From a virus (Duplodnaviria; Heunggongvirae; Uroviricota; Caudoviricetes), in IMG/VR virus record IMGVR_UViG_2713897056_000005: a DNA stretch of 38,380 nucleotides, one strand, 5' to 3'. How positions within the stretch are numbered: the first letter of the stretch is position 1; each line of letters starts with the position of its first letter. Under the pieces are notes generated by a model. That model made no database searches. It saw nothing but the letters and a program-made list of their open reading frames with translations, and was not told the origin of the DNA. Made by a program: the position numbers and the translations under genes. This document shows, piece after piece, positions 3,797-34,660 of this stretch.

Positions 3797-4897
3797 TCAT
3801 TCTATTTCGAAATCATCAATCCTCACTTCAAGCTCCAGACTGGTCGTAAAACCGTTATCCGGGCTGACGGTATGTGTCAGAGTCGTAATGGTCCATTCCG
3901 CATCATCTATCGGCTGTTTAAAACCACTGACTTTCACTGGCATTTCCGTGTAGAGATCTGCCCGACCTTCCGCCAGTTGTAGCGAGAATGACGCAACGCC
4001 GCGTTGCAGGCGTTCCCACTGCATTTTCGCTGCCCGTTCAGCGTTGCTCCGGTTGGCATAAGTGCGATTAAGTACCAGCACGTTTTCATCCGTACCCACC
4101 AGGTAATCGCCCTGCTTCGCTTCCGGCTCTTTCTTCTGCTTCTTAGTCCTGCGCTTACGCTTCACCGTTGTGCTTTCTTTCTTCGCGGGTTCGCGGGTAT
4201 GCAACCAACTGGCAATTACGCCCGTATAGGCTCCGCGATCTGCCAGGGTAAAGCGGTGACTGTCGCCGTCCTTACGTGTGATAGTGATCACCGGCAGTGG
4301 TTTACCGCTGACACTTTTACTCTGTCCCTGTCGGATGAATAACAGATTGCCATTTTTCACCGACGCAATAGCACCGTACTGGCGCGCCAGCCGCATCAGA
4401 AAACTGCCGTCACTCTCATTAGTCTGGTCTATATGCTCCACGGGCTTATCCGACAGGTCTTTACCCAGTGCCATCTTCAGCTTGTGACGTACGGCTATTT
4501 CCTTCACTACTTCCCCGACGGTGGTCTTGTGCCACGACTTTTCACGGCGGGTATTCAGCGTTTCACGAAAATCAGCACTTCGCGCCCGAATAGTCAGGCG
4601 GTCCGGTGCGCCAGTGTGTTCAATCTCGTCCACCGTGAATGCCCCTTTCGGGAAAAGCGGCTGCCCCTTCCAGCCCAGCGCCAGCGTAATGACCGCACCA
4701 CGGCGCGGCAGCACGATTTTTCCATCGGCGTCGTCCAGCTCCAGATCAAGCTGGTCCGCTTCAAATCCCCGGTTATCCGTCAGCGTCAGCCCCATCAGGC
4801 GGTTGTCCAGCACAGTGGTGATATCCCTGCCTTCAATACTGATGCTGAATGCCGGAGTTTTGTTGCCTTTGTTAAGCAGTTCAGAGCTGAAATTCAC
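3797..4897 (-). CDS. D: Tail protein D (late control gene D family)
   Basis: 366 aa; position downstream of U and adjacent to ogr as in P2; N-terminal region resembles gpD. Confidence 0.8.
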   Translation of the reverse strand: MNFSSELLNKGNKTPAFSISIEGRDITTVLDNRLMGLTLTDNRGFEADQLDLELDDADGKIVLPRRGAVITLALGWKGQPLFPKGAFTVDEIEHTGAPDRLTIRARSADFRETLNTRREKSWHKTTVGEVVKEIAVRHKLKMALGKDLSDKPVEHIDQTNESDGSFLMRLARQYGAIASVKNGNLLFIRQGQSKSVSGKPLPVITITRKDGDSHRFTLADRGAYTGVIASWLHTREPAKKESTTVKRKRRTKKQKKEPEAKQGDYLVGTDENVLVLNRTYANRSNAERAAKMQWERLQRGVASFSLQLAEGRADLYTEMPVKVSGFKQPIDDAEWTITTLTHTVSPDNGFTTSLELEVRIDDFEIE

Positions 4898-10776: not shown

Positions 10777-11349
10777 TCAGGGGGATTCATTGCTCTTATT
10801 TGCCGGAAATTTTCTATAAATTGTGGAAACACCCACATCAAAAATCAGTGCAATACGCTGTCTTGATTCTCCGGCCTCGAGTAAGCGCCCAATCTGTGCC
10901 CACTGTTCGGTGGTCAACTTAGGACGGCGTCCACCTACTCTGCCTTTATCACGAGCTGCAGCCAGCCCCGCCCTGGTACGTTCAACTATCAGTTCGCGTT
11001 CCATTTCTGCCAGGGCCCCCATGACATGAAAAAAGAAACGGCCCATTGGGGTGCTGGTATCAATACTGTCAGTCAGGCTTCGGAAATTCACGCCACGCTG
11101 GCGCAACTCTTCTATCAGCGTAACAAGATGCCGCATACTGCGCCCCAACCTGTCCAGCTTCCAGACGACCAGCGTGTCTCCTGCCGATAGTGTCCTGAGC
11201 AGTTTTTTCAGCCCCGGTCTGTCGGACTTAGTGCCACTGATTTTATCCTCAAAAATTCGCTCACATCCCGCGCAGTTCAGTGCATTACGTTGCAAATCGG
11301 TGTTCTGGTCATTTGTTGACACGCGTACATAGCCAATAAGCATGATCAT
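10777..11349 (-). CDS. Serine-recombinase DNA invertase (Gin/Cin/Pin/Hin family)
   Basis: MLIGYVRVSTNDQ N-terminal catalytic-serine motif, resolvase/invertase core, C-terminal helix-turn-helix (GVSTIYRKF); true start may be the third codon (11343). Confidence 0.85.
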   Translation of the reverse strand: MIMLIGYVRVSTNDQNTDLQRNALNCAGCERIFEDKISGTKSDRPGLKKLLRTLSAGDTLVVWKLDRLGRSMRHLVTLIEELRQRGVNFRSLTDSIDTSTPMGRFFFHVMGALAEMERELIVERTRAGLAAARDKGRVGGRRPKLTTEQWAQIGRLLEAGESRQRIALIFDVGVSTIYRKFPANKSNESP

Positions 11350-11408: not shown

Positions 11409-11424
11409 CGTTGGTTTGGGAGAA
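11409..11424. repeat. Inversion crossover site (invertase-proximal inverted repeat)
   Basis: cgttggtttgggagaa; reverse complement matches 13226..13241 at 15 of 16 positions; resembles gix/hix half-site pattern. Confidence 0.7.
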
Positions 11425-11760
11425 GCGGCAAAACGAAATGTGGGAACAGGGGAAAATCAGATACCAGATATGTCTGCATTCCCATCTGGCAAAAACTGGT
11501 TTCAGTTACCAAGTGGTCATATTGTCCAAATGTTTTCGATGAATGTTTATGGGGCGGACACTAACGGAACTACTGGTAATTTCCCTATTGCATTTCCTTC
11601 AGGTGCACTTGCTGTTAGTGCCTTATGGTCTGATGGCACATTAACGGCTGCTCCGACCTTTAAACTTATGGGGTACACGACAACAAGGACATCAGTAACC
11701 TTAAAAGTATCAACCGGAAATGGTTTGTATGGAACTATGATTATCGCAATAGGAAGATAA
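11425..11760 (+). CDS. Silent alternative tail-fibre C-terminal cassette (promoterless, fuses to the constant part of H after inversion)
   Basis: Frame begins inside the repeat with GLGE, then AAKRNVGTGENQ...; in-frame with H codons LGLGE at the other repeat, so inversion creates an in-frame fusion. Confidence 0.65.
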   Translation, partial: AAKRNVGTGENQIPDMSAFPSGKNWFQLPSGHIVQMFSMNVYGADTNGTTGNFPIAFPSGALAVSALWSDGTLTAAPTFKLMGYTTTRTSVTLKVSTGNGLYGTMIIAIGR

Positions 11761-11761
11761 T

Positions 11762-12205
11762 ATGAATCAATATATTTATTCCCCCTCGGAAAATGCATTT
11801 TATGCTGTTAATTTAAAAAATACTTATGAAGTAAATGGAACATGGCCCGCTGATGCATTAGATATTCCTGATAACATTTCTGTAAAATATATGGCGGAAC
11901 CGCCACAAGGGAAAATCCGAGTTGCAGGGGTAAATGGTTTTCCCACATGGGCTGAAATACCTCAACCATCACATGAAGAACTTATTCAACAGGCAGAATC
12001 AGAAAGACAATTATTGCTTAATCAGGCCAACGAACACATGAACAGTAAACAATGGCCTGGTAAAGCGGCTATTGGTCGTCTGAAAGGTGAGGAACTGGCG
12101 CAATATAATTTGTGGCTGGATTATCTGGACGCACTGGAGCTGGTCGATACTTCCGGTGCGCCAGATATTGAATGGCCTACGCCTCCGGCAGTTCAGGCCA
12201 GATGA
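11762..12205 (+). CDS. Alternative tail fibre assembly protein (silent orientation)
   Basis: 147 aa ORF directly after the alternative cassette; C-terminus (LWLDYLDALELVDTSGAPDIEWPTPP) parallels the active Tfa C-terminus (LDYIDAVTATDTSTAPDVIWPELP). Confidence 0.65.
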   Translation: MNQYIYSPSENAFYAVNLKNTYEVNGTWPADALDIPDNISVKYMAEPPQGKIRVAGVNGFPTWAEIPQPSHEELIQQAESERQLLLNQANEHMNSKQWPGKAAIGRLKGEELAQYNLWLDYLDALELVDTSGAPDIEWPTPPAVQAR

Positions 12206-12779
12206 CATCCGGCGCGGTGCTGGTATCTGTTGCCGTCACCGCGTCAATGTAATCCAGCATGGCGTTAAGTCGGGTTGTTTCTGCCTGCGTCAGTTTCCGT
12301 CCGGCCTGCAATTTCAACTGAATCAGACTAATGGAAGCCATTGCAGTATCAATCAGTGACTGACGTTGTGCTTCTGCCGCGTCTACTGCGGCGCTATGCT
12401 GTGCCTCGGTATCCGTCACCCATTTCTCACCATCCCATTTATCGTATGGCGTTAACGGGGCGATAGTGGTTGTTTTTTCGGGGTAATCACCCGGAGTTGT
12501 GATTTCTTTGGCGTCTCCCGTTTCGGTGTTATAGACAATTTCACCGCGATGGTCTGGCACATATTCCCATGAGTTTAAATCCATCGAACGGCAGATAGCA
12601 TAACCTGCCTTATGTGTGCCAGGGGCATCTAAACAGGAATATGCAGGGATACCGACACCAATGGCAAGATATTCATTTGAAGTGGAAATATATTCCCGTG
12701 TTTCGCCATCATAGTTATAGACGGTAATATTTCCCGCCTTTGTAGCAATAAACTCGCTATTTAATACAGCGTTATCCAT
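12177..12779 (-). CDS. G: Tail fibre assembly protein (gpG/Tfa family), active orientation
   Basis: 200 aa immediately downstream of H; start overlaps the H stop. Confidence 0.8.
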   Translation of the reverse strand: MDNAVLNSEFIATKAGNITVYNYDGETREYISTSNEYLAIGVGIPAYSCLDAPGTHKAGYAICRSMDLNSWEYVPDHRGEIVYNTETGDAKEITTPGDYPEKTTTIAPLTPYDKWDGEKWVTDTEAQHSAAVDAAEAQRQSLIDTAMASISLIQLKLQAGRKLTQAETTRLNAMLDYIDAVTATDTSTAPDVIWPELPEA

Positions 12780-14287
12780 TATGCAGCCCTCACGATATAG
12801 TTAAATGCAATATTCCGTGGGCGAGTATCGGCAGGAACGACATACATTTCACCAATTGCCCGCTCATTAGAGTTGTTCAGCAATAGGCTTGAGCCATTAC
12901 TGTCATGACCCGTAATTAAGATATCATTGGACAAAATAAGTGAGCCCGTACCTGCAGGAATACCATAAATTCCCATATCAAATTTAATATAACCAACACG
13001 CGCGCTCTGTGCAGACATAACGCTGCGACCAGTATCTACTGAACGACCGTCATCCCAGCCACGAATAAACTCACCGCGTAAATCAGGCAATTTATTTGTC
13101 GGGTAAGCCTTTGCCAGTTCCGGGTATTCTTCAGCAGAAAAAGCCGCACCGTTACATTTCAGCCAGCCAGTAGGCGGTGTTGCAGAAGGCCACGGAACAG
13201 GCACACCAACGGGTAATGCCGAACCTTCTCCCAAACCAAGGTATGTGAGAAGACCAGCTACATCCTTTCCACTCAAATTAGTCAGCGTATTGTCCAGCGG
13301 TTGTTTACCTGCCAGCGCATTAAGCATTGTCGTGGCAAAGTTCGGATCATTCCCCAGTGCCGCCGCCAGTTCGTTCAGTGTATCCAGTGCCGCAGGTGCA
13401 GAACCCACCATTCCTGCAATCGCCGATTTCACAAAAGCCGTAGTGGCAATCTGTGTATTATTGACCGACTGCGCCGCCGTAGGGGCTGTTGGCGTTCCGG
13501 TGAGTGCCGGACTCGACAGCGGCGCTTTCAGTGCCAGCGCATTGTTAATGGTGGTACTGAATTTCGGATCATTGTTAATGGCTACGGCTATTTCTTTCAG
13601 CGTGTCCAGCGTGGCTGGCGCACCATTAATAAGAGCCGTCAGTGCCGCCTGAACAAATGCGGTGGTCGCAATCTGCGTGGTGTTATTCCCCTCCGCTGGC
13701 GTTGGCGCTTTGGGTGTTCCGGTCAATGTCGGGCTTTCTTTGGGTGCATACTGTGAATGCGGGTCCGGTGCGGCAAGATGTTTTGCCATCTTATCATCCA
13801 CGAACACCTTCAGCTCCAGTACCTTGTCATCCACATACTTGCGGGTTGCCAGCACGACGGCAGGGTCGATTTTCAGGGTGATATTGTCCGTGCTGCTGGT
13901 AATCAGCACCATGCGCACGGTCTGGGTGCGCCCGCTGCCTTCAGCCAGTTGCGGCTTATAGCTTTCCGGGCAGTTGCCTACGGCAATCAATGCCCCGGAC
14001 TCATCAAACAGACCCACTTCACGTATCCACCAACCACCCTCATTTTCAGGGATCACCTGTTCAGCAATAATCTGGCTGCTGTTCTGCGGGTCGATATAGA
14101 GCATATTCAGCGCAGCCCGGCGTTTCTCATTTACCAGTGCCGTCTGCTTTGCGTCCGGCGCCGACAATGCTCCGCCGCCATCGCCCACCGCCATATGGGT
14201 AATTTTTAGCGGCACACCTAGCGCGGCGGCGCTGGCAAGTTTCGCCGCGCCAATATCCGTCAGCAGGGTATAAAATTTTGTGCTCAT
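12779..14287 (-). CDS. H: Tail fibre protein H (constant N-terminal about 354 aa plus current variable C-terminus)
   Basis: 502 aa; N-terminus MSTKFYTLLTDIGAAKLA resembles P2 gpH; contains internal crossover repeat. Confidence 0.85.
   Translation of the reverse strand: MSTKFYTLLTDIGAAKLASAAALGVPLKITHMAVGDGGGALSAPDAKQTALVNEKRRAALNMLYIDPQNSSQIIAEQVIPENEGGWWIREVGLFDESGALIAVGNCPESYKPQLAEGSGRTQTVRMVLITSSTDNITLKIDPAVVLATRKYVDDKVLELKVFVDDKMAKHLAAPDPHSQYAPKESPTLTGTPKAPTPAEGNNTTQIATTAFVQAALTALINGAPATLDTLKEIAVAINNDPKFSTTINNALALKAPLSSPALTGTPTAPTAAQSVNNTQIATTAFVKSAIAGMVGSAPAALDTLNELAAALGNDPNFATTMLNALAGKQPLDNTLTNLSGKDVAGLLTYLGLGEGSALPVGVPVPWPSATPPTGWLKCNGAAFSAEEYPELAKAYPTNKLPDLRGEFIRGWDDGRSVDTGRSVMSAQSARVGYIKFDMGIYGIPAGTGSLILSNDILITGHDSNGSSLLLNNSNERAIGEMYVVPADTRPRNIAFNYIVRAA
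13226..13241. repeat. Inversion crossover site inside gene H (encodes LGLGE)
   Basis: ttctcccaaaccaagg; inverted copy of 11409..11424. Confidence 0.7.
13304..13729. repeat. Diverged tandem duplication of about 225 bp inside H
   Basis: Protein shows two copies of a roughly 70 aa unit (NNTQIATTAFV...LDTL.E.A.A...DP.F.TT..NALA.K); coordinates approximate. Confidence 0.4.
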
Positions 14288-22729: not shown

Positions 22730-24499
22730 ATGAACACCACACTGACACCCGCAGATCTCGATCCCCGTCGGCAGGCCATGCTGCTGTACTTTCAGGGATA
22801 CCGCGTAGCCCGCATTGCTGAAATGCTGGGCGAGAAAGTTGCAACCGTTCACAGCTGGAAAAAAAACGCGACAAGTGGGGTGACTATGGGCCGCTGGATC
22901 AGATGCAGCTCACCACCGCCGCACGCTACTGCCAGCTCATTATGAAGGAGCACAAAGAAGGGAAAGATTTCAAAGAGATTGACCTGCTGGCGCGCCAGTC
23001 GGAGCGCCATGCGCGGATCGGCAAGTTTAACAATGGCGGCAACGAAGCCGACTTAAACCCTAACGTCGCCAACCGCAACAAAGGCCCGCGCCGTCAGCCG
23101 GAAAAGAACGTTTTCACCGATGAACAGATTGAGAAGCTGGAAGAAATCTTCCATTCCTCCATGTTCAACTACCAGCGCCACTGGTGGGAAGCCGGAAAAA
23201 CCAACCGCATCCGCAACCTGCTGAAGTCACGCCAGATCGGCGCGACCTTTTACTTTGCCCGTGAAGCCCTGATTGACGCCCTGCTTACCGGACGTAACCA
23301 GATTTTCCTTTCTGCCAGTAAGGCACAGGCTCACGTCTTTAAGCAGTACATCATAGACTTCGCCAAAGAAGTCGAGGTGGAGCTGAAAGGCGATCCGATG
23401 GTGCTTCCTAACGGAGCCACGCTTTACTTCCTCGGCACCAATGCCCGCACGGCCCAGAGTTATCACGGCAACCTGTATCTGGATGAATATTTCTGGATAC
23501 CGAAATTCCAGGAGCTGCGCAAAGTGGCTTCCGGTATGGCTATTCACAAAAAATGGCGACAAACCTATTTTTCCACGCCATCCAGCCTGACACACAGTGC
23601 TTATCCGTTCTGGTCCGGTGCGCTATTCAACCGTGGGCGCAACAAAGCCGATAAGGTGGACATCGACCTGTCCCACAGCAATCTGGCCCCCGGCCTGCTG
23701 TGCGCAGACGGGCAATACCGCCAGATAGTCACCGTGGAAGATGCGGTGCGCGGCGGCTGTAACCTGTTCGACCTTGACCAGTTGCGCATGGAGTACAGCC
23801 CGGACGAATACCAGAACCTGCTGATGTGCGAGTTTGTGGACGATCTCGCGTCCGTGTTTCCGCTCAGCGAGCTGCAGGCGTGCATGGTGGACAGCTGGGA
23901 AGTCTGGACCGACTTTCATGCACTGGCGCTGCGCCCGTTTGGCTGGCGCGAGGTGTGGATCGGTTATGACCCGGCAAAAGGTACGCAGAACGGCGATAGT
24001 GCCGGATGCGTGGTGGTGGCTCCGCCAGCCGTGCCGGGTGGTAAGTTCCGCATTCTTGAGCGTCACCAGTGGCGCGGGATGGACTTCCGCGCCCAGGCTG
24101 ACGCCATCAAAAAACTGACCGAACAGTATAACGTGACCTATATCGGCATCGACTCGACCGGCGTCGGTCACGGGGTTTACGAGAACGTGAAAGCGTTTTT
24201 TCCTGCCGTCAGGGAGTTTGTCTACAACCCCAACGTTAAAAAACGCCCTGGTACTCAAGGCCTACGACATTATCAGCCACCGCCGTCTGGAGTTTGACGC
24301 CGGGCACACCGACATTGCGCAGTCATTTATGGCAATCCGTCGCGCTACCACTGCCAGTGGCAACCGCCCGACCTATGAAGCCAGCCGCAGCGAAGAAGCC
24401 AGCCATGCCGATCTGGCCTGGGCAACAATGCACGCACTGTTTAACGAACCGCTGCAGGGCGAATACGCCAATACCAGCAATATTGTGGAGATTTTTTGA
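22730..24499 (+). pseudogene. P: Terminase ATPase (large) subunit P, reading frame broken twice at homopolymer A runs
   Basis: Three consecutive ORFs in different frames (22730..22945, 22903..24297, 24218..24499) together give a continuous terminase-like protein; breaks at A8 (22859..22866) and A6 (24238..24243). Confidence 0.75.
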
Positions 24500-25533
24500 T
24501 GGGAAAGAGTAAGAAGAACCGAGCTGCGGCGACGAAACAGATCCAGCTTAAAAGTCAAACTACAGCCGAAGCATTCAGCTTCGGCGATCCCGTTCCTGTT
24601 CTGGACCGCCGTGAACTGCTGGACTATGTGGAATGCGTACAGATGGACCGTTGGTATGAGCCGCCCGTCAGCTTTGACGGACTGGCGCGCACCTTCCGCG
24701 CCGCCGTGCATCACAGTTCCCCGATTGCAGTAAAGTGCAACATTCTGACCAGTACCTATATCCCTCATCCGCTGCTCAGCCAGCAGGCTTTTTCGCGTTT
24801 TGTGCAGGACTATCTGGTATTTGGTAACGCCTACCTGGAGAAACGCACGAACCGATTCGGTGAAGTTATCGCTCTTGAGCCTGCGCTTGCAAAATACACC
24901 CGACGCGGATTAGACCTGGATACCTACTGGTTTGTGCAATACGGTATGACAACCCTGCCGTATCAGTTCACGAAAGGCAGCATTTTTCATCTGATGGAAC
25001 CGGACATCAACCAGGAGATCTACGGCCTGCCCGGTTATCTTTCTGCCATTCCGTCAGCCCTGCTCAACGAGTCCGCCACGCTGTTCCGCCGCAAGTATTA
25101 CATTAACGGTAGCCATGCAGGCTTCATCATGTATATGACCGATGCCGCGCAGAACCAGGAAGATGTGAACAACCTCCGCAACGCAATGAAAAGCGCCAAA
25201 GGCCCTGGCAACTTCCGCAATCTGTTTATGTACTCGCCTAACGGCAAAAAGGACGGACTTCAGATTATCCCGTTGTCAGAGGTCGCAGCGAAAGATGAGT
25301 TTTTGAATATCAAGAACGTGAGTCGGGATGACATGATGGCAGCACATCGTGTGCCGCCGCAAATGATGGGGATTATGCCGAGTAATGTTGGGGGGTTTGG
25401 GGATGTGGAGAAAGCCAGCCGCGTCTTTGTTCGCAACGAGTTGATACCTCTGCAGAAGCGCCTTCAGGAATTGAACGACTGGCTTGGAGAAGAAGTCATG
25501 CGTTTTGAAGATTATAATTTAGGTATTGAATGA
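24496..25533 (+). CDS. Q: Portal protein Q
   Basis: 345 aa; directly after P; P2 gpQ size. Confidence 0.9.
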   Translation: MMGKSKKNRAAATKQIQLKSQTTAEAFSFGDPVPVLDRRELLDYVECVQMDRWYEPPVSFDGLARTFRAAVHHSSPIAVKCNILTSTYIPHPLLSQQAFSRFVQDYLVFGNAYLEKRTNRFGEVIALEPALAKYTRRGLDLDTYWFVQYGMTTLPYQFTKGSIFHLMEPDINQEIYGLPGYLSAIPSALLNESATLFRRKYYINGSHAGFIMYMTDAAQNQEDVNNLRNAMKSAKGPGNFRNLFMYSPNGKKDGLQIIPLSEVAAKDEFLNIKNVSRDDMMAAHRVPPQMMGIMPSNVGGFGDVEKASRVFVRNELIPLQKRLQELNDWLGEEVMRFEDYNLGIE

Positions 25534-25540
25534 TATTTAA

Positions 25541-25570
25541 AAGCCTGTACAAACAGGCTTTTATTCTTTA
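25541..25570. terminator. Hairpin plus T-rich tract between convergent Q and cargo operon (likely bidirectional terminator)
   Basis: agcctgt-acaa-acaggct followed by a T-rich tract (ttttattcttt). Confidence 0.5.
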
Positions 25571-25602
25571 GTTTAAAATCACCAAGACATGAGCATTAAA
25601 AC

Positions 25603-26268
25603 TTAAAGATCCGGATCTACAGGCTCATGATATAGATTTACAGGGTAATGAATAACTTCATAATTCAGTTGAGTAACTGTGTGAACATGCTGGCTATAAA
25701 AAACCAATGGATTTTTTTGACAAGGAGTAATCGTTATAGATTTACAGGCATGAATTCTTGGTGCGAATTTATCTAAATGCGCCTTCCAGTTGCTCATCAT
25801 TTCATTACATTTTCTATTACGAGTATAGATAATCAATCCACCACTTGCGCTGTCTACGGTCCCTGTACTATATCGTTCAGTGAGTTGAGCATACCCTTTA
25901 AATAAATAACTATATGAAGATGTATGTTTTTTGGCTTCGCCATGCCAAATATAATCCTTTAGTTTTATTGTAATATCACAATGTCCGCGCTGATTATTTT
26001 CATGAAATGCTTCAATGCCCATATCTTTATTTTTGATATTGGCCAATAAAATTAAAGTAAGCTGATCTTCTGTTAAATCGAAGTTTAACTTATTTGAATT
26101 CTCTTCTATTTCCTTTACAGCAGAATCAAGTTCAATCCTGACAAATTGTTTGAAATTATCGTACGATTGAAGTGCAAATCTAACACGAGTAATAGAAGCA
26201 TTAATACGCTGAAGAAAAATATCATTATCAATATCAGCCAAACTCATTGCTGCAGACATTTTTAACAT
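25603..26268 (-). CDS. Hypothetical protein, gene 3 of AT-rich cargo operon; possible PD-(D/E)xK-like nuclease motif
   Basis: 221 aa; start ATG overlaps the stop of the upstream gene (TGATG); segment GHCDITIKLKDYIWHGEAKK fits a D...ExK pattern (weak). Confidence 0.5.
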   Translation of the reverse strand: MLKMSAAMSLADIDNDIFLQRINASITRVRFALQSYDNFKQFVRIELDSAVKEIEENSNKLNFDLTEDQLTLILLANIKNKDMGIEAFHENNQRGHCDITIKLKDYIWHGEAKKHTSSYSYLFKGYAQLTERYSTGTVDSASGGLIIYTRNRKCNEMMSNWKAHLDKFAPRIHACKSITITPCQKNPLVFYSQHVHTVTQLNYEVIHYPVNLYHEPVDPDL

Positions 26269-26702
26269 CAGATAATATCCTTTGATTTAGATTCATCTAA
26301 TGTAAAAAAAGGAAATACGAATGACTTATAGTCATACATAAGCTCCCCTGTAAATGGGTTTACTAAAGATTGACTGATTTCCGCCTCAATAACTTCCTCT
26401 ATTTCAAGTTCTACAGGGTCATGAAAATCATCAATGAACCAATAATTGAGTTTTAAAAAATCAACCTTTGGGCTACAAAGAATTTGTATGGCCGGATAGA
26501 TAACCTGCTCATACGTTTCTGGCTGTAAAACCTTATTATAACCACCAGCTATATTAAATAAATCCTTATAACTTAAAGCTATATTTGATGATTTTTTAGC
26601 CCTTGCCTCGATTTCATCGTACAAATAGCAAGCTAACGCCCCAATTTCAGGGCGTTCTGCACACATTTCTTTGATGATCTTGGGCATATCACCATCCTTC
26701 AT
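26268..26702 (-). CDS. Hypothetical acidic protein, gene 2 of cargo operon
   Basis: About 144 aa from the ATG at 26702 with GGAG Shine-Dalgarno; Asp/Glu-rich. Confidence 0.5.
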   Translation of the reverse strand: MKDGDMPKIIKEMCAERPEIGALACYLYDEIEARAKKSSNIALSYKDLFNIAGGYNKVLQPETYEQVIYPAIQILCSPKVDFLKLNYWFIDDFHDPVELEIEEVIEAEISQSLVNPFTGELMYDYKSFVFPFFTLDESKSKDII

Positions 26703-26714
26703 TGCTGACTCCAA

Positions 26715-27821
26715 TTATAATATCAGCTTTGTGAGGGTTTCGAAATCATCTTTGGATATACATTTACTTAATATAGCATAGTTAACAGGAGAGCAACTAC
26801 TCCCTCCTAGATGCCTGCGGAGTGTTCCCGGAATGATAAGCTCTACGTTATCCGCTAATTGCAGTTTTGGATTATTTCTATCAACTCTAATTCCAATACG
26901 ATACAAACCAATACTGCCTACTGCTTTGATGCCTTCCTTATTAAACAAATCATCACGTAAGTCTTTAGTGGCCACATTTTTCTTTTCTTTATGCGTAGTC
27001 CCCTCATTCGTCAAAAATGACAAATCAAAGACTTTATAGCTTAATTTTGAATAAGGCAATGAATTTTGTTTGAAAATTGGCTCAATTAACGGATAAAAAT
27101 CTTTTTCCGATGATTTAAATTCATAACCGACATGATTATACAATTCACGAATAATGTTACTCTTTGCAAAAGTAACATTATCACCAATAATATTACCATT
27201 AGTATCTACCAAAACATGAATTTTATTAGTAACAGAGTCTAATATACAGACATCAAAACATTGTCGCTTTTCTTTTCGCTTTGCAATAATTTCATCAAAC
27301 TGCTTGTATTGCGCAAGTGCTGACGGGGGAATTTTTTCTCTTACAACTAATTCTCTGACAGATGAAAAAACAAGTATTGACTGGGTGTTTTGAATAGAAT
27401 AATTAACAAGTTCAGGTTGATTTTTTACAGCATTTTGCAATTGGACATCATCAAGGATCGAATCAACCAATAATGATGGTTGATTCATCAAATTCCATTG
27501 AAAACTAAATCTGTCATTTAGTGTTTTAATTACACTATTATCTACAGTCAAACTAAATATTGCTTTTTCACCATAAACGACCTGACCAAAAATTAGGTCA
27601 TTTACGTTTGCCATAATGCCATCAAACTTTTGCCTATCTTTACTTTTAAGATCAATGAGGCTTTCTAGTATTTTTTCGTTTGTTGCTTCACGCCCCCTAC
27701 CTGTTGGCAGCCCTAAAGACGCAATAATTGGCCTTGCAACGTTCCATGTGAAACGTTCAGTTAAGGTCAAGATCGACTTTAACTCAGACTCAGAAAGCAC
27801 TACTGGGACACTACCTGTCAT
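26715..27821 (-). CDS. Hypothetical protein, gene 1 of cargo operon
   Basis: About 368 aa from the ATG at 27821 with AGGTG Shine-Dalgarno (a GTG at 27830 is an alternative start); no recognisable ATPase or other motif. Confidence 0.5.
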   Translation of the reverse strand: MTGSVPVVLSESELKSILTLTERFTWNVARPIIASLGLPTGRGREATNEKILESLIDLKSKDRQKFDGIMANVNDLIFGQVVYGEKAIFSLTVDNSVIKTLNDRFSFQWNLMNQPSLLVDSILDDVQLQNAVKNQPELVNYSIQNTQSILVFSSVRELVVREKIPPSALAQYKQFDEIIAKRKEKRQCFDVCILDSVTNKIHVLVDTNGNIIGDNVTFAKSNIIRELYNHVGYEFKSSEKDFYPLIEPIFKQNSLPYSKLSYKVFDLSFLTNEGTTHKEKKNVATKDLRDDLFNKEGIKAVGSIGLYRIGIRVDRNNPKLQLADNVELIIPGTLRRHLGGSSCSPVNYAILSKCISKDDFETLTKLIL

Positions 27822-27980
27822 AACTTGCACCTAGTCATCCAAAAAGCAATAAGAATTTGCTCTTGTCTTAATTTATCCTTCGATACCTAACAAATTACCT
27901 CAATGTTGAAAAAATTTGCAAGCCATTTGCTTCTAAAAAGCGACCTTACTCAGAGTGTTACAAAACTAAGCGAGCGCGCG

Positions 27981-27999
27981 CTCGTATCCCCGCCACGCC
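27981..27999. other. cos-like cohesive-end site
   Basis: Reverse complement GGCGTGGCGGGGATACGAG; the first 13 nt match the P2/186 cohesive-end sequence as I recall it; sits in a 720 bp non-coding stretch. Confidence 0.5.
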
Positions 28000-28020
28000 T
28001 GCCCGCTTTATGCAGTGATT

Positions 28021-28123
28021 TTCATGCACCTGCATGACATAAGCGAAAGCCCGCCAGTTCTGGGGGGCCTCAGCAAAAACGATCCTCAAACGATCATGCA
28101 ATTTCATGCAGCATAGTCATGCA
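28021..28123. repeat. Cluster of short CATGCA repeats adjacent to cos (possible terminase binding sites)
   Basis: CATGCA at 28023, 28095, 28105 and 28118 plus an inverted TGCATG at 28031. Confidence 0.35.
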
Positions 28124-28552
28124 CAGCCAAGAGAAGTGAAAATCCGTATCTGAATGACCACTTAAAAAACGAAATATACGGGTTTACAAACATGGAGGTT
28201 CACTGTGAGCGAAGAGCGGAAGTTGCCTTAATTAGGTTACATGGGGGACAAATGTTACTAGCATGATTATGCGGGATACTTACAATACCACGCCTTAATT
28301 GCTTTGTTATCCCACCAGAAAGTCATGGAGCCGCAACTGATAAGAAAATTGTTGTAAAAGTGCCAGTTGGTTACTCTGAATTTCTGCTTAGCCAGGAGAG
28401 TGCCTGCGTTGTCAGCGAATGCGTAAGTTGATCCTTCAATGCAGAAATAGTTCAATTTATTAAACAACACTCCTGGCGGGATTAACGCCGCATCTATAAT
28501 GCGTGAGAGTGTGCATGCGCAATTTCAGCAAAAAAAATTGAAAATAGCGCTA

Positions 28553-29525
28553 CTAACTTCCCTTTATTTTTAGTTCGTTAAAAATATCTTCGATTACCAA
28601 TCCATTTTTAATTAAATGCTGCACAATATTTTCATATTCTTTGAAATTGTCAATATGCAAGCCATGATCTTTTTCTTTAGCAATTCTCGTGATCACATGT
28701 ACGCTATCTGTATAATCAATCTTATTTTTAAGAGCATTGAGCAAACTTATACTTGGATTTAAAGTTGAGATTAGTTTACCAAACTCGGTTTGTAACTCTT
28801 TGGATTGATGAGTATTAATATAATCTTCAATAAAAGCATCAAAATCTCCTTGCAACTCAACTTTAAGGTTTGCTATATCCTTCATAATATTTTCTAACTC
28901 AGAAGAGTATGGCCGACCATGTTTAAAATCGAATAAAAAAAGATTTGCTTTCTCAATACATTCGCAAATATAAAAAACTGTATAAAGGGAATATTTTTGC
29001 TTAACTTTTAATTTTCCATAGGCGTAGTGAACCAAAAGATGCTTAGCATTAATAACATTTTTATTTTTTGAAAGTTGATTGTTAGTTGCAGGCGGATAAA
29101 TTACCACATCAACATTATCTAAATTTTGAAAAGTTTTTAAAATAAGAGCCTCAACCTTATTCCAATCGAGGCCCCCATTACCACAGCCTAAAGGTGGTAT
29201 TGATATTGATGTAATTTTTTTTTTCATCTATAATTTTTGCTAAAGATTCAAGGCCTTGCGAGATAAAATCATATGTTGATTTTTTTCTCCAACTATCTTT
29301 AGTGGGAAAGTTTACAATTATTTTTCCCTTTTCCTCTACAATTAAAACCTGTCCAATTTTCATTGTACCAGTGGCGCATGCTCTCTTATAAACTTCGAAA
29401 TTATAGGGAAAAGTTTCTTTAAAAGCCAAAGCAATACCCTTTCCCATGACTCCTTGGCAGTTTACAGCATTCACAAGAGCTTGCGATGTAGAGTTTAGAA
29501 GATTTCCGCTTGCATACTTAATCAT
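28553..29525 (-). pseudogene. darG: DarG-like macrodomain antitoxin, split into two ORFs at an A10 tract
   Basis: 29178..29525 encodes the macrodomain N-terminus (ALVNAVNCQGVMGKGIALAF) and 28553..29227 continues it (SIPPLGCGNGGL) plus a C-terminal domain; frames switch inside the A10 run at 29215..29224. Confidence 0.65.
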
Positions 29526-29529
29526 AGAA

Positions 29530-30111
29530 TTAGAACATATAAGTGTTGATCGTTATCAATATACTTAATCCTTGTTGTTTTATCAACCCTTCAACATATT
29601 TTTTTTCGTTATCATTTTTGACAAAGATGCAATGGAAATTTTTCGGCTCGACCGTTACACTTGATAAACACTCAGCCATACATACAGATTTGCATTCTGC
29701 ATTTTTATAATCCCTTATATTCATTAGCTCCCAGTCAATTTGGGCCATTCCTTGTTCATAATCTAAGAGGTCTATAACAGAACTGGTGGATAATGGATGT
29801 TTAGGGATAACTTTCCAACCATTTTCTTTGGCAAATGCCCGACAAACCGAAATAATACAAAATGATTTTTCCTTATGATCTTTCAGGACTCTTCCATCAA
29901 ATGGATTCTTAGTAAAGAAATGAAAAGGAACCATTGTTTGCAAATTTAATGCTTCGCGACCTGTTATTATTTCACCGTCGGCCACATCAACAAACTCACC
30001 TTTTACTGATGCACGAGATCTTAATCCTGTATCTAAAATACTAGGTAGATTATCCATACATGTTAAATGATAGAGAAGATACTGATCTTCAATTCTTTTC
30101 CTTTCGCTCAT
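29530..30111 (-). CDS. darT: DarT-like DNA ADP-ribosyltransferase toxin (DUF4433 family)
   Basis: N-terminal LLYHLTCMDNLPSILDTGLRSR matches the DarT signature as I recall it; 193 aa; 4 nt upstream of the macrodomain gene; GGATGA Shine-Dalgarno. Confidence 0.65.
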   Translation of the reverse strand: MSERKRIEDQYLLYHLTCMDNLPSILDTGLRSRASVKGEFVDVADGEIITGREALNLQTMVPFHFFTKNPFDGRVLKDHKEKSFCIISVCRAFAKENGWKVIPKHPLSTSSVIDLLDYEQGMAQIDWELMNIRDYKNAECKSVCMAECLSSVTVEPKNFHCIFVKNDNEKKYVEGLIKQQGLSILITINTYMF

Positions 30112-30578
30112 TTCAACTCATCCTTTCAAATTCGTAAGTCTATTTATAGAACCAAACCTCACTGGCAGTCAAGGTTTTTAAGATTATTCACATTGCCTTC
30201 TGCCTGTCGATCTAATTATTTTCGATTTTTTGGGTATGATTTGGCATTATTGATATACAAGGTAAAACAATTTTTCAGTAGTTTACTGACGCTGAGTGAT
30301 TACGATAGCTAGCTTGGGAAGGAAATGGCCATAGTGCATGTGCTGAACAAAATGAAAAAGGCAGGGACATTCTGGTCTTCCCCATGAGTATGGATTTTCA
30401 TTGCATCGATGGGTATGAGCAACGTCCCCTTGATTAAGGATAGCGTTGCATCGACCCGTTGAACTCACAACACAAATCGTACAATCACTTATCAAAATGG
30501 CCGCCCACCTTACGCCTCGTTTCACTCGCTACCCAAACTAGCCCCCATCAGAATGAATCCTCCTGGGGGCAATGTTTC

Positions 30579-30812
30579 TTAATGCAGCCAGCTGTCGTCC
30601 TCCCACACCTTCTGCATAATTTTCATCACTTGTTTTCTTTCTTCATCCAGTTGCAGTCCGGTTAGTTCCACACCGTTAGAGCTACCTTTGCGAATGCGAA
30701 TTACCGTTTTGGGATACAGGGGGCGCAGATTGCGGTAAAGCTCGGATTCAAGGGCGTCCAGGGTAGACTGGCTAATCTTCTGCTCTTTATCGATCATTAT
30801 TTCAATGCGCAT
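30579..30812 (-). CDS. DinI-family protein (possible C-terminal domain of a Tum-like antirepressor)
   Basis: MRIEIMIDKEQKIS...VWEDDSWL resembles DinI; the longer ORF to 30884 and upstream frames may be part of the same gene. Confidence 0.65.
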   Translation of the reverse strand: MRIEIMIDKEQKISQSTLDALESELYRNLRPLYPKTVIRIRKGSSNGVELTGLQLDEERKQVMKIMQKVWEDDSWLH

Positions 30813-31054
30813 AAAAGTCACCTCAGCTGATGACATCCATTGAGCGGTTGTATTCGTGGCTTCTGATTTTTGCCATGAGTTCATCTGTCAGTTCAGAAAC
30901 CCACTGCAGAGCCAGCCCTTTCTCTTCATCACTACACTCACTAGCCGCTACAAGCTTAAGAAAAAAAATCAATGCGCTGGAGCTTCAAAGACTCCAAAAA
31001 ATAGTCCTGCATCTTTCCTCCTATGACACCAAAGCAATACTGTATACATAACCA

Positions 31055-31070: not shown

Positions 31071-31167
31071 TATATAATAATCTTACTGATGTAAAACGTT
31101 TTTTTTTTACGTTCATCAGCCTGATATGCCTAGTATTATTAAGAGCACGAATTGTTAACCCGCGTAA

Positions 31168-33582
31168 TTAATACAGATCCCGCCACTTATCATCTTCCTG
31201 CAAACGCTGGTTCCGATAGAAGATACGCAGGCCTGCTCCTGACGGAATACTGCCACCGCGAAGGAGTAAATCGACCTCTTTCTCGCTTCCATCAAATCCT
31301 CTGGACTTCAGTTCATAGACGAGCTGCTGTCGCTGATGATCTGTAATTCGCTGTTTGTAGTCTCTACGCCGTTTCGGTTTCACCAGGCGTAACCTTGCAG
31401 CCAGTTCCCGGCGCTCTTTTTTGTTCATACTGTGCAGGTAATCGTGCAATTCCTTGTCATCCATGCAGGTGATATCCGTTCTGGTATCCCCATCAGCTGA
31501 TTTGTCTTTCCCTTGTTGGTACAAATTTTCAGCAAGGGGACAGTTATTGCCACGAGTCCAAGGGGCGCAAGCGCCCTGGTCGGCTGCCGCCTCCTGAACG
31601 TCAACGGCTTTACGAACCATTTTCCACTTCACTGCATGAGTGCAGATCTTGCCCTCTGCAATGGGTGACCAGATGCCATAAATACGAATGCCGTGATCGC
31701 CATAGGCGGTCGGCTCTTCGTTGATTTCATAAGCGGTTCTGATGAGGTGATATTTACGGGGAACCAGTACGCCGCCCTGCTTCATGATGTAGGTGGCAAA
31801 ACAACCAGCATCAGCAGCAGCCAGGATGGCATCAAGGCGCGGGTTATCCAGTACCGGCGCACCTGCTTTTTTGTCCCCCTTTTGCCTTACCGCCTGACCA
31901 GCCAGCAATCGCAGTTCACGGTAAGCCTGACGCCCCGGAATGCCAAAGAAGCGGAATTGCTGAACACGATGCAAAGACGCCCAGGCATTCACGTATTCAG
32001 CGTTATCACGCAGAGATTTACCCGTTTCCTTGCTGATCTCGCCAGCCAGACCACGCCCGTCAATGTTCTTACTGATGTATTTCGCTATGTAGCTTGTCGG
32101 CGTTCCTTTGCGCGGGTTAATCAGCTCAGACTTAAAGCGCGGCCCCGTGTTATTGCCCAGCTCCTCGCGGTCTTCACGGATAGCAAACTTACGCAACAAT
32201 GCTGTAATGGCGCGGCGGTCTTTTTTGCGCATGAAACACAACAGGTGCCAGTGAACTGTGCCGTCGTGATGCGGCTCAGCCACCCGCACGCCATACCAGC
32301 GCAACCCGGCTTTGTGCATCGCCTTACGAAATGCAGCAAACATACCGACCAGATAATCGCTGCTTTGTCTTACCGTCGCATTTGTCCAGGTCGGGTTGGG
32401 CCTGCCGTTATTTAGCGTGGAATGGAAACGTGACGGACAGGTGATGGTGTAGAAAACGGCGCAGTCACCGCGCATTTCCGCGATAAGCTCCAGACCTTTA
32501 ACACAGGCCATCATCTCATTGCGGCGATGCGCAGGGTTGCTGCTGCTGGCGTTTACCACATCCTCCATGTCTAGCGTGTCGCCGTCTTCGTTCACCAGTT
32601 CATGAGAACGGAAAAACTCCAGCGACTTACGGCGCTGCTCACGTTTATGCAACACGGCTTCATAGCTGACATAGGGAGATGCTTTTTTGCTGACAAGGCA
32701 GACAGCACGCAACTGCTCTTCCCGCCATTCGCAACGCATCTTCCATAATTTCCGATACCACCAGTCGGCGCACAACATACGCGCCAGCGAACCCGGAATG
32801 AGTTCATAGGGCACGGGTTTACGGCGGTTTCTTTTCCGACGGAGTTGCTCAAACGCAGGCGGGATGACATCCAGACGCAGGGTTTCCGCTGCCACCCTTT
32901 CCCATGTATTGCGGATTTCTTCTGGCTTAACGTCATCGGTGGCATACAAATCGCCACAAGCGGCATCAAGGCACATACTCATATGCGCAGCTACCAGGGT
33001 GGACAGGCGTTTCACCTGATCCTGACTCATTTCAGGCAGGATCAGCAGGCCGTCCAGCCCTTCATGGCTTGCCATAAAGCGAAAAGATGCAGATAGCTGA
33101 CTGTCGCGTACATGCTCCAGTCGTTCCAGACATGGCTTAATCGTCTCACGTAAATAGCGGGAATAAGCCTTTGGCCTGCCCAGGCTGCTGAAGTATTCAA
33201 TACGTTGCATCAGCGGCTTGCTGATATGGGAAGGCTGGGCGTTGACGTCCGCCAGAATGACCATATCCGGATTAAAACGCTGCTGCTCATGCGCCAGCTT
33301 TGCCCGACTAATGAGCTTATCCTGTTCCATTTCGCGCTGGACAGGATCACGGGATTCATTAAAGAAATAACGCTCCCAGACCTGATCACTCAGCGCCTCA
33401 CGGCGCAGCTGTTCCTGCTCGTTATCGGCAGCGTACAGAGTGATCAGGTTTGAAAGCGTAGAAACCGGCGCAACTTCCACCGGGTCCAGATAAGGGTTAA
33501 TGGCCTTTTTCGAGCTGTTCCATGAGAACGATGCGGCAGCTTCGTTAAAGCCGCAGCAGTTGTTCATATCGGCATGACTCAT
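31168..33582 (-). CDS. A: Replication initiation endonuclease A (rolling-circle initiator)
   Basis: 804 aa; last gene of early operon; P2/186 gene A size class. Confidence 0.8.
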
Positions 33583-34436
33583 GCACGTACTCCGTACACG
33601 GCAGAACTATCCACGCCACGCGAATAATCAAATCCCACCCAGCAGCGCGGCCCGGAAACAGCAATGATTTCTGTTGCTGATTTACCCTCGCCAGCTGCCA
33701 CACCGATGCTGCGTTTTGCCTTGATGTAGTGGTGAGTAAAATTGCGATACAGCGAACGGATCAGGGATGTGTCACTGTTAGAAACAATGACCGGATGTCC
33801 TTCTGATAACCGATGTTCAAGAACAGATGCCAGGTGATACTGGTCATCTTCAGTGAAGCCGTCAGTGTGATAGCCGGAAAACGTACCGTCATACGGCGGA
33901 TCGCAATACACCACATCCCCCGCCTTCAACATCGCCAGCGTTTCATCAAAGCTGGCGCAGATAAACGTTGCTCGCTGGGCCTTTTCTGCAAATGCGCGAA
34001 TTTCTTTTTCAGGGAAATATGGATTTTTATAATTACCGTAGGGAATGTTGAAATGCCCGCTCTTGTTATAGCGACATAAACCACGGTAACCGTGACGATT
34101 GAGATACAGGAAATATACCGCTTTCATGAAATCAGTAATTTCAGTTGAGTAATTAAACTCCTGCCTTATATTGTAATAAGCCACCTCCCTGTTTGCGATC
34201 TCAAATAAAACTCTGGCGCGAGATATAAACGATTCACAATCAGCGGCAACCTTTTTATAGAGGTTGATTAAATCAGGATTAATATCCGCAACCAGATAGC
34301 TGGGATAATCCGTCTCCATCATCACAGCACAGGAACCCGCGAAAGGTTCAACCAGTCGCGGGCCAGCAGGAAGATGTTTTTTTAGTTCGGACATTATGGC
34401 AGTTTTATTTCCCGCCCATTTCAGGATGGTGCTCAT
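33579..34436 (-). CDS. dam: DNA adenine methyltransferase (Dam family)
   Basis: N-terminus [11 protein letters not shown] and catalytic DPPY motif ([10 protein letters not shown]); start set at internal Met. Confidence 0.85.
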
Positions 34437-34660
34437 ACAGCACCTCCGTTGTAATGTTTGCCTTTCAGCTCTGCGATTTCCTGACAGGTAATGCAAAGCT
34501 GCACACCCGGAATGGCACGGCGGCGTGCTGGCGGAATTGGCGCTTCACACTCAATGCAAAGCACGCGGGACACGCCCGGCGTTTTGGCACGGGCAGCACG
34601 GATATGGCGTTGGCGTTCTTCTTCAACGCGCTGCTGTACGAGATCCATTGCATCAGCCAT
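34433..34660 (-). CDS. TraR/DksA-family C4 zinc-finger protein
   Basis: 75 aa; CxxC-N17-CxxC (CIECEAPIPPARRRAIPGVQLCITCQ). Confidence 0.7.
   Translation of the reverse strand: MADAMDLVQQRVEEERQRHIRAARAKTPGVSRVLCIECEAPIPPARRRAIPGVQLCITCQEIAELKGKHYNGGAV

What the first reader, a model, noticed from the sequence alone, without database searches (positions are those of the whole stretch)
27831..28552. cos-like site embedded between two cargo blocks, with adjacent CATGCA repeat cluster
The sequence GGCGTGGCGGGGATACGAG (reverse complement of 27981..27999) resembles the P2/186 cohesive end. It lies about 2.4 kb from the end of Q rather than immediately beside it, with cargo inserted on both sides, and a cluster of CATGCA repeats about 25 to 125 bp away that could be terminase recognition elements. 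This places both cargo blocks at the extreme ends of the virion chromosome.
Basis: partly seen in the sequence, partly recalled or inferred. Interest (0 to 1): 0.4.

Follow-up and report, generated by a model that had tools for sequence, protein, structure and literature searches.

The report
Ordinary P2-family phage packaging (cos) site
This is the normal DNA-packaging cut site of a P2/186/Fels-2-type prophage of E. coli, sitting, as is usual for this phage group, in the middle of a known hotspot for accessory defence genes; it is real but not new.

Summary
The reverse complement of 27981..27999 is GGCGTGGCGGGGATACGAG. It matches the 186 cohesive end at 15 of 19 bases and the P2 end at 14 of 19. 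It is identical to the published, similarity-based cos annotation of the plaque-forming Salmonella phage SEN8.

The 19-mer sits in a 152-bp block (27973-28124) that aligns with the cos regions of P2, 186, P4, Fels-2 and more than 110 viral contigs. Similarity collapses on both sides of this block. A profile built from the other cos cores hits the window once (E 2e-41).

The "CATGCA" cluster is five copies of TCATGCA. Their positions (+24, +31 inverted, +96, +106, +119 from the nick) are conserved across all cohesive-end classes. Terminase recognition is the best reading, but it is inferred.

Cargo lies on both sides:
- An uncharacterised three-gene operon lies on the Q side.
- An IS903-like remnant plus DarTG lies on the A side.

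This is the known gpA-gpQ cos-proximal hotspot. In this clade a cargo-sized gap (>500 bp) between Q and cos is the rule (20 of 24 contigs). The finding is already known in kind, so interest is low.

The parts
25538..25563 (+). Intrinsic terminator immediately after portal gene Q. It corresponds to tQ of P2 and tW of 186. Q-side cargo is inserted between it and cos.
   Evidence: Terminator scan. P2 and 186 annotate a terminator at the same relative place.
25603..27821 (-). Q-side (left-end) cargo: a three-gene operon of 368, 148 and 221 aa with unknown function.
   Evidence: No Pfam family above the curated cut-off (one weak Rep3_C match on the 221-aa protein) and no NCBIfam or PADLOC hit. PHROGs 12777, 11490 and 9664 are all 'unknown function'. 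RefSeq calls them hypothetical proteins. The block occurs with other A-side cargo in other E. coli genomes.
27831..27972 (.). AT-rich spacer between cos and the start of the Q-side operon. Presumably its promoter and leader, but this was not shown.
   Evidence: It travels with the Q-side block in other genomes (matches span query 1-2590). It is not conserved in other cos regions. The consensus scan found no minus-strand promoter here.
27973..28124 (.). Conserved cos core (152 bp).
   Evidence: This is the only part of 27831-28552 shared with 80-90 phage records, at 84-93% identity among the fuller-length matches. It aligns with P2, 186, Fels-2 and others. Column conservation collapses at both edges. 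nhmmer E 2.2e-41.
27974..28028 (.). Equivalent of the 55-bp block that is near-identical between P2 and its satellite P4: GCGCGC, 1 nt, the 19-nt end, then 29 nt ending in the first ATGCA.
   Evidence: Counted from the P2 and P4 sequences. [quoted passage not shown]
27981..27999 (-). 19-nt cohesive end GGCGTGGCGGGGATACGAG. Predicted nicks lie between 27980 and 27981 on the + strand and between 28000 and 27999 on the - strand, giving 5' overhangs.
   Evidence: Sequence read. P2 cosL and 186 cos annotations. Identical 19-mer at SEN8 1-19. The end of the SEN8 record aligns to window 28000.
28022..28028 (+). TCATGCA repeat R1 (ATGCA at +24 from the nick).
   Evidence: ATGCA is at +24 in 111 of 114 unique cos regions.
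28031..28037 (-). TCATGCA repeat R2, inverted relative to R1 (TGCAT at +31).
   Evidence: TGCAT is at +31 in 78 of 114. It is absent in P2 itself.
28049..28068 (.). Imperfect palindrome GCCCGCCAG-TT-CTGGGGGGC (one mismatch). Optional element of the family.
   Evidence: A perfect inverted repeat of at least 6 bp is present at this position in 42 of 114 cos regions, against 3-8 of 114 in control windows, with 13 different arm sequences. It is absent in P2. As minus-strand RNA it folds at -17.2 kcal/mol, z -1.35, here, against z -4.24 in Fels-2.
28094..28100 (+). TCATGCA repeat R3 (+96).
   Evidence: ATGC is at +96 in 98 of 114.
28104..28110 (+). TCATGCA repeat R4 (+106).
   Evidence: ATGC is at +106 in 90 of 114.
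28117..28123 (+). TCATGCA repeat R5 (+119). It marks the right edge of the conserved core.
   Evidence: ATGC is at +119 in 72 of 114. Conservation ends at 28124.
28125..28282 (.). Unassigned spacer that travels with the A-side cargo block.
   Evidence: No phage-database match. No Rfam match. Included in right-block matches that start at 27973-27975.
28283..28473 (-). Remnant of an IS903-like (IS5 family) element: the terminal inverted repeat plus about the first 36 codons of the transposase. It is truncated on the side facing cos.
   Evidence: 73-74% identity to IS903 in P7, HK022 and others. It aligns to the IS903 end. RefSeq annotates a pseudogene, 'IS5/IS1182 family transposase, incomplete'.
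28553..30111 (-). A-side (right-end) cargo: the DarT-DarG toxin-antitoxin and defence pair. DarG is split in the window by a 1-nt homopolymer difference at 29215.
   Evidence: Pfam DarT and Macro. PADLOC DarT and DarG. DarG is intact (323 aa) in E. coli S40. The same DarT protein accession (WP_016239482) is listed in the P2-hotspot table of PMC9122126.

Best explanation
The window holds a Fels-2/186-type (Peduoviridae) prophage of E. coli, and 27973-28124 is its cos site.

Proposed mechanism. After replication, the phage terminase (small or endonuclease subunit gpM plus ATPase gpP, both encoded in the window) recognises this 152-bp module. It makes two nicks 19 bp apart: between 27980 and 27981 on the + strand, and between 28000 and 27999 on the - strand. 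This leaves 5' single-stranded ends, GGCGTGGCGGGGATACGAG and its complement.

Where recognition sits. Specific recognition most likely lies on the replication-gene (A) side of the nick. That side carries five TCATGCA elements in fixed positions: an inverted pair at +22 to +37, and three direct copies at +94 to +123 spaced 10 and 13 bp apart. These probably act like lambda cosB. On the Q side only about 7 conserved bases (GCGCGC) are needed.

Consequence for cargo. Because so little flanking sequence is needed, foreign DNA can sit right up against the module on both sides. Here that is an unknown three-gene operon between tQ and cos, and an IS903 remnant plus DarTG between cos and tum/A. In the virion these two blocks form the two extreme ends of the linear chromosome.

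What is shown and what is inferred.
- Shown: the sequence, its homology, the conservation of repeat positions, and the independent assortment of the two cargo blocks.
- Inferred: cleavage at these bases, binding of terminase to the repeats, and that this particular prophage still packages.
For: - 19-mer identity. The 19-mer is read. It matches 186 at 15 of 19 and P2 at 14 of 19. It is identical to the SEN8 cos annotation, and the SEN8 record ends align to 27999|28000.
- SEN8 as a working example. SEN8 forms plaques and carries two genes between cos and Q.
- Extent of homology. Alignment with P2, 186, Fels-2, MLG42, 500465-1 and a Klebsiella phage shows homology from GCGCGC to the last TCATGCA, with unrelated flanks. 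A 118-sequence profile gives one hit, E 2.2e-41.
- Repeat positions. ATGCA or ATGC at +24, +96, +106 and +119, and TGCAT at +31, are conserved in 114 unique cos regions and in every cohesive-end class. Motif density is 3.9 per 100 bp inside the core against 0.23 in the flanks.
- P4 comparison. P4 must be packaged by P2 terminase. It shares the same layout but nothing beyond GCGCGC on the other side.
- Gene context. Q, P, M, A, tum and int lie in P2/186 order.
- Block assortment. In other E. coli genomes the Q-side block matches 25534-28123 and the A-side block matches 27973-30560. They overlap only in the cos core.
- Literature. PMC9122126 and PMC13586616 describe the gpA-gpQ cos-proximal hotspot. 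PMC5694545 gives the 55-bp core and the cos-Q insertion hotspot.
Against: - No virion ends have been mapped for this prophage. I also found none for any phage with exactly this 19-mer; the SEN8 site was assigned during annotation.
- In the window the terminase ATPase gene P is split by homopolymer differences at 22859-60 and 24238 relative to E. coli S40, where it is intact. If those differences are real rather than sequencing errors, this copy cannot package.
- The central palindrome is degenerate here.
- I could not read any published footprint or mutational evidence that links the TCATGCA elements to terminase.
Confidence: 0.9

Rival explanations
1. The site is a genuine cos by descent but a relic. 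The prophage would be defective, so the site is never cut and the cargo never reaches virion ends.
For: In the window, P (terminase ATPase) is broken into three ORFs and DarG into two.
Against: All breaks are single-base or 2-3-base length differences in A or T runs relative to the otherwise 99.95%-identical S40 prophage. There every late, lysis, replication and integration gene is intact. That pattern is typical of assembly error. The cos core keeps every conserved element and has more perfect TCATGCA copies than the plaque-forming phage MLG42.
Confidence: 0.08
2. The TCATGCA repeats are transcription signals for the neighbouring accessory genes, not packaging signals. Terminase would need only the roughly 55-bp core.
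For: In P2 the old-tin transcript starts (33424 and 33426) lie just outside the distal repeats, so the old promoter must overlap them. P2 and P4 are near-identical only over 55 bp.
Against: The repeats keep the same positions in phages and in satellite P4, whose neighbouring genes differ in identity and orientation. In the window nothing is transcribed outward from them: the next features are an IS fragment and the 3' end of DarG. No promoter-like site was found there.
Confidence: 0.12
3. The match is a chance resemblance of a GC-rich 19-mer.
For: None beyond the shortness of the 19-mer.
Against: 152 bp of homology at E 7e-58 to phage records. Profile hit at E 2.2e-41. Correct map position between Q and A.
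Confidence: 0.005

Closest known systems
cos of Salmonella phage SEN8 and Fels-2 (Felsduovirus)
   Same: The 19-mer is identical (SEN8 1-19). The A-side arm is 89-92% identical over about 126-150 bp. Both have accessory genes between cos and Q: two genes in SEN8 and one 565-aa gene in Fels-2. Both have tum/DinI and A on the other side.
   Different: The host is E. coli. The cargo on both sides is different. The central palindrome carries a mismatch here.
cos of coliphages 186 and P2 (experimentally defined 19-nt 5' cohesive ends) and of satellite P4
   Same: The architecture is the same: GCGCGC, a 19-nt end starting GGCG(A/T)GGCGGGGA, GCCCRC, a proximal ATGCA at +24, and three distal ATGCA copies at about +96 to +120 on the A or old (or psu) side.
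   Different: The last six bases of the overhang differ (TACGAG against AAGCAT or AAGCAC). In 186 and P2, Q lies about 165-190 bp from cos with only a terminator between, whereas here the gap is 2.4 kb.
cos-proximal gpA-gpQ accessory and defence hotspot of P2-like phages (Rousset et al. 2022, PMC9122126; Dodd and Egan 1996 and Nakayama 1999 as cited in PMC5694545)
   Same: Variable gene content lies between A and Q with cos inside it. DarT and Macro arrangements that include this very DarT protein are listed in their Table S5. The three hypothetical proteins of the Q-side block are also listed there.
   Different: Nothing essential. This locus simply has both sub-slots occupied (tQ-cos and cos-tum). 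The two sub-slots can be seen to assort independently.
lambda cos (cosN plus cosB R-sites)
   Same: It works alike: a nicking site with partial two-fold symmetry, plus an array of short repeats on one side only.
   Different: There is no sequence relationship. The overhang is 19 nt rather than 12 nt. No convincing IHF site was seen by eye. From my own knowledge, not checked here, P2-family terminase cuts monomeric circles.

Membership tests
P2-family (Peduoviridae) cos site | 19-nt cohesive-end sequence of the GGCG(A/T)GGCGGGGA... type | tested here: met
   15 of 19 to 186 and 14 of 19 to P2. Identical to the SEN8 annotated cos.
P2-family (Peduoviridae) cos site | Conserved flanking core (the 55-bp P2/P4 block) and the wider A-side arm | tested here: met
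   Alignments. nhmmer E 2.2e-41.
P2-family (Peduoviridae) cos site | Map position between portal gene Q and replication gene A, with cognate terminase genes M and P present | tested here: met
   P is interrupted in the window by homopolymer differences but intact in S40.
P2-family (Peduoviridae) cos site | Staggered cleavage giving 19-nt 5' overhangs at exactly these bases in virion DNA | not testable with these tools
   Needs end-mapping of particle DNA. The SEN8 site was assigned by annotation.
P2-family (Peduoviridae) cos site | Sufficiency of the fragment for packaging (cosmid transduction) | not testable with these tools
   Shown for P2 and P4 cos fragments in the literature (PMC9942202), not for this variant.
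gpA-gpQ cos-proximal defence hotspot of P2-like phages | Gene content between A and Q varies among otherwise similar prophages | tested here: met
   Only 3 of 5,426 complete E. coli genomes carry both blocks. Others carry one block with different partners. Q-cos distances are 148-3374 bp and cos-A distances 487-3647 bp in the same cos class.
gpA-gpQ cos-proximal defence hotspot of P2-like phages | Carries recognisable anti-phage systems | tested here: met
   DarT and DarG by Pfam and PADLOC. The Q-side operon is unclassified.
lambda-type cosB (terminase small-subunit binding array) | Repeated short elements on one side of the nick site, with conserved position | tested here: met
lambda-type cosB (terminase small-subunit binding array) | Direct binding by the small terminase subunit | not testable with these tools
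   No binding data were available to me.

The most novel reading that the evidence does not exclude
The five phased TCATGCA elements would be the so far unmapped binding array for the P2-family small terminase subunit. The 152-bp module would then have two roles. It would be the minimal portable packaging signal. It would also be the shared homology on which the Q-side and A-side cargo slots recombine independently among phages, and possibly with P4-like satellites.
Probability: 0.45. Interest if true: 0.3.

Novelty: already known. Interest (0 to 1): 0.12.

Why it matters
The result fixes the ends of the packaged chromosome of this prophage type. It also delimits two separate cargo slots (tQ-cos and cos-tum/A), which helps when mining P2-like prophages for defence systems. 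It gives a comparative definition of the cos module: 152 bp, five TCATGCA elements and only about 7 bp needed on the Q side. That definition could guide cosmid or transducing-particle design for Fels-2-type phages. It does not change what is known about P2-family packaging.

Tried and rejected
- Rfam. A scan of 27500-28800 gave only a chance miRNA match (E 0.56), so there is no known RNA element.
- Promoter for the Q-side operon. The consensus scan found none in 27831-27972, so this stays open.
- Motif avoidance. CATGCA looked three-fold depleted outside cos (14 against 44 expected from dinucleotides). This might have meant the phage avoids its packaging motif elsewhere. The deficit disappears under a third-order model (17.8 expected) and follows the general avoidance of CATG and TGCA, so I rejected the idea.
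- Central palindrome as a required hairpin or terminator. It is enriched in the family (42 of 114) but absent in P2 and weak here, so it is optional.
- Rousset's validated 'hp+hp+hp' system. The Q-side operon shows no similarity to it.
- P4-like satellites with this cohesive-end class. None were found among the viral contigs that hold the cos pattern with room to read its flanks; the 4 satellites there all have the P2-type end. The sample is too small to conclude anything.
- Literature. Ziermann and Calendar 1990 and the Christie and Calendar review could not be read.
- IHF consensus. I found no convincing match near the distal repeats by eye. This was not tested formally.

Full report
**What the window is.** The gene order runs ogr, D, U, T, E, tail, baseplate, lysis, L, M, N, O on the minus strand. 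P and Q follow on the plus strand. Then come accessory genes, tum/DinI, A, a Dam-type methylase, cII, cI and int. The window is 99.95% identical to a prophage of E. coli S40 (NZ_CP010235.1) inserted between ybjL and rcdA. It is a 186/Fels-2-type member of the Peduoviridae, shown in the reverse of the usual P2 map orientation.

**Checking the observation.**
- Window 27981..27999 reads CTCGTATCCCCGCCACGCC, whose reverse complement is GGCGTGGCGGGGATACGAG.
- The annotated cohesive ends are GGCGAGGCGGGGAAAGCAC for P2 and GGCGTGGCGGGGAAAGCAT for 186. That is 14 and 15 matches of 19, with the first 13 bases identical to 186.
- Q ends at 25533, so the site is 2,447 bp from Q.
- CATGCA occurs at 28023, 28031 (minus strand), 28095, 28105 and 28118.
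- The unit is in fact the 7-mer TCATGCA. Five of its ten occurrences in the window lie within 102 bp.
- The conserved half of the site occurs once in the window.

**Is it a cos site?**
- A BLAST of the whole intergenic region against 50,697 phage records matches only two pieces. Window 27973-28124 matches 80-90 P2-like phages of Escherichia, Salmonella, Klebsiella and Yersinia, at 84-93% among the fuller-length matches. Window 28285-28470 matches IS903.
- Aligning this core with the circularised ends of P2 and 186, and with Fels-2, MLG42, 500465-1 and a Klebsiella phage, shows continuous homology. It starts at a GCGCGC box 1 nt outside the overhang and runs to the last TCATGCA. The flanks on both sides are unrelated.
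- The GenBank record of Salmonella phage SEN8 starts with exactly this 19-mer, annotated 'putative cos site'. Its last base aligns to window 28000, the base next to the overhang.
- SEN8 was grown from a plaque and CsCl-purified. Its cos was assigned during annotation, not by end mapping (PMC5427200).
- A pattern scan of IMG/VR returned 120 stretches with a match, of which 116 (115 distinct cores) could be read with their flanks. Eight overhang variants were seen, and 36 contigs have the window's variant.
- A profile HMM made from 118 of these cores, without the window, hits the window once at 27970-28127 with E 2.2e-41.
- The exact 29-mer around the site occurs in 35 species-representative genomes, nearly all of them Enterobacterales.

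**The repeats.**
- In 114 unique cos regions, counted without any gap adjustment, ATGCA sits at +24 from the nick in 111.
- ATGC sits at +96 in 98, at +106 in 90 and at +119 in 72. TGCAT sits at +31 in 78.
- The same positions recur in every overhang class.
- Motif density is 3.9 per 100 bp at +15 to +130, against 0.23 in the flanks.
- These columns lie outside the pattern used to collect the contigs, so their conservation is independent of how the set was chosen.
- Satellite P4 depends on P2 terminase. It has the same layout on its psu side: a proximal TGCA pair, a palindrome and three distal ATGCA copies. On its gop side it shares only YGCGCGC with P2.
- P2 and P4 are near-identical over 55 bp, corresponding to window 27974-28028. 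This matches the '55-bp core' of Ziermann and Calendar as cited in PMC5694545.
- My inference is that recognition elements lie on the A side of the nick and that very little is needed on the Q side. Binding by the small terminase subunit is not shown.
- On each strand the nick follows G-Y-G-S-G-C-R (GCGGGCA| and GCGCGCG| here). This partial two-fold symmetry is read directly from the sequences of P2, 186 and the window. It fits a symmetric nicking enzyme.

**A palindrome in the core.** An imperfect palindrome lies at 28049-28068.
- It is enriched in the family: 42 of 114 have a perfect inverted repeat of at least 6 bp there, with 13 different arm sequences, against 3-8 of 114 in control windows.
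- It is missing in P2 and weakened here (z -1.35 against -4.24 in Fels-2).
- On the minus strand it would resemble a terminator for transcripts arriving from the A side.
- I treat it as optional.

**The surroundings.**

Q side:
- A strong terminator sits directly after Q at 25538-25563, as in P2 and 186.
- Next is a three-gene minus-strand operon at 25603-27821. It has no Pfam family above the curated cut-off (one weak Rep3_C match on the 221-aa protein) and no NCBIfam or PADLOC match.

A side:
- A 158-bp unassigned spacer comes first.
- An IS903-like 5' end remnant follows at 28283-28473 (RefSeq pseudogene).
- DarG and DarT occupy 28553-30111.

Assortment of the two blocks:
- In other complete E. 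coli genomes the Q-side block matches 25534-28123 with different A-side genes, for example in ECONIH4.
- The A-side block matches 27973-30560 with no Q-side cargo at all in TUM2820, where Q ends about 150 bp from cos.
- Only 3 of 5,426 genomes have both blocks. The two slots therefore assort independently and overlap only in the cos core.

**Is the distance from Q unusual?** No.
- Among viral contigs with the same 19-mer and a detectable Q, 20 of 24 have 546-3374 bp between Q and cos.
- Among P2-type ends, 27 of 31 have about 175 bp.
- Fels-2 has a 565-aa gene there, SEN8 has two genes, and phage 500465-1 has a TIR protein.
- PMC5694545 cites Dodd and Egan 1996 (retrons Ec67 and Ec86 replacing DNA between cos and a terminator) and Nakayama 1999 (ctx of phiCTX) for cos-Q as an insertion hotspot.
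- Rousset et al. 2022 describe the whole gpA-gpQ cos-proximal region as a defence hotspot with 1,650 arrangements. Their tables list this DarT protein and the Q-side hypothetical proteins.

**Caveats.**
- Relative to S40 the window has extra bases in A or T runs at 22859-60, 24238, 28530, 29215, 30961 and 31099-101. These split P and DarG into pieces. The pattern looks like assembly error, but if it is real this copy could not package.
- A 16-bp repeat (S40 locus positions 3858 and 39357) would make the prophage about 35.5 kb, close to the 35.2 kb of SEN8. This att assignment is weak.

**Verdict.** The site is a typical Fels-2-class cos embedded in the known cos-proximal cargo hotspot. It is already known in kind, and the only open mechanistic point is whether the TCATGCA array is the terminase binding site.

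Noticed in passing
window 25603-27821 (minus strand): The Q-side cargo is an uncharacterised three-gene operon. The 368-aa protein has an AlphaFold model with pLDDT 86, and its best PDB fold match is the DNA-binding protein RdgC (Foldseek E 3e-6, TM 0.35-0.41). The 221-aa protein has invariant D98, E111 and K113. It gives only weak fold hits (E >= 0.03), many of them to PD-(D/E)xK-type nucleases such as Bax1, AF1548, Cap4, Can1 and Hjc. Both families appear almost confined to Enterobacterales. The operon is not Rousset's 'hp+hp+hp' system. It is a candidate new defence cassette.
   Followed up: partly
window 22859-22860, 24238, 29215 (also 28530, 30961, 31099-31101): Extra A or T bases in homopolymer runs, relative to the otherwise near-identical E. 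coli S40 prophage, split terminase gene P into three ORFs and antitoxin DarG into two. These are probably sequencing errors. If real, the prophage would be packaging-defective and DarT would be left with only a 115-aa macro-domain fragment.
   Followed up: partly
window 11411-13251: The tail-fibre and tail-fibre-assembly segment next to a serine-recombinase gene (10777-11349) is inverted relative to S40. This indicates an active invertible host-range switch of the Gin/Cin type.
   Followed up: no
window 28283-28473: A 190-bp 5' end fragment of an IS903-like element (terminal inverted repeat plus about 36 codons) sits between cos and DarG. It travels with the DarTG block in several E. coli genomes, so it is a scar of how that cargo arrived.
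   Followed up: yes
window 30579-30884 and 33579-34496: A Tum/DinI-like gene and a Dam-type DNA adenine methylase flank gene A, as in 186, Fels-2 and the retron Ec67 phage. This suggests SOS-inducible derepression of the 186 type.
   Followed up: no
whole window outside 27960-28135: Palindromic hexamers such as CACGTG, CCGCGG, CGCGCG and GCATGC are strongly under-represented. The apparent depletion of CATGCA is part of this general pattern and is not specific avoidance of the cos motif.
   Followed up: yes
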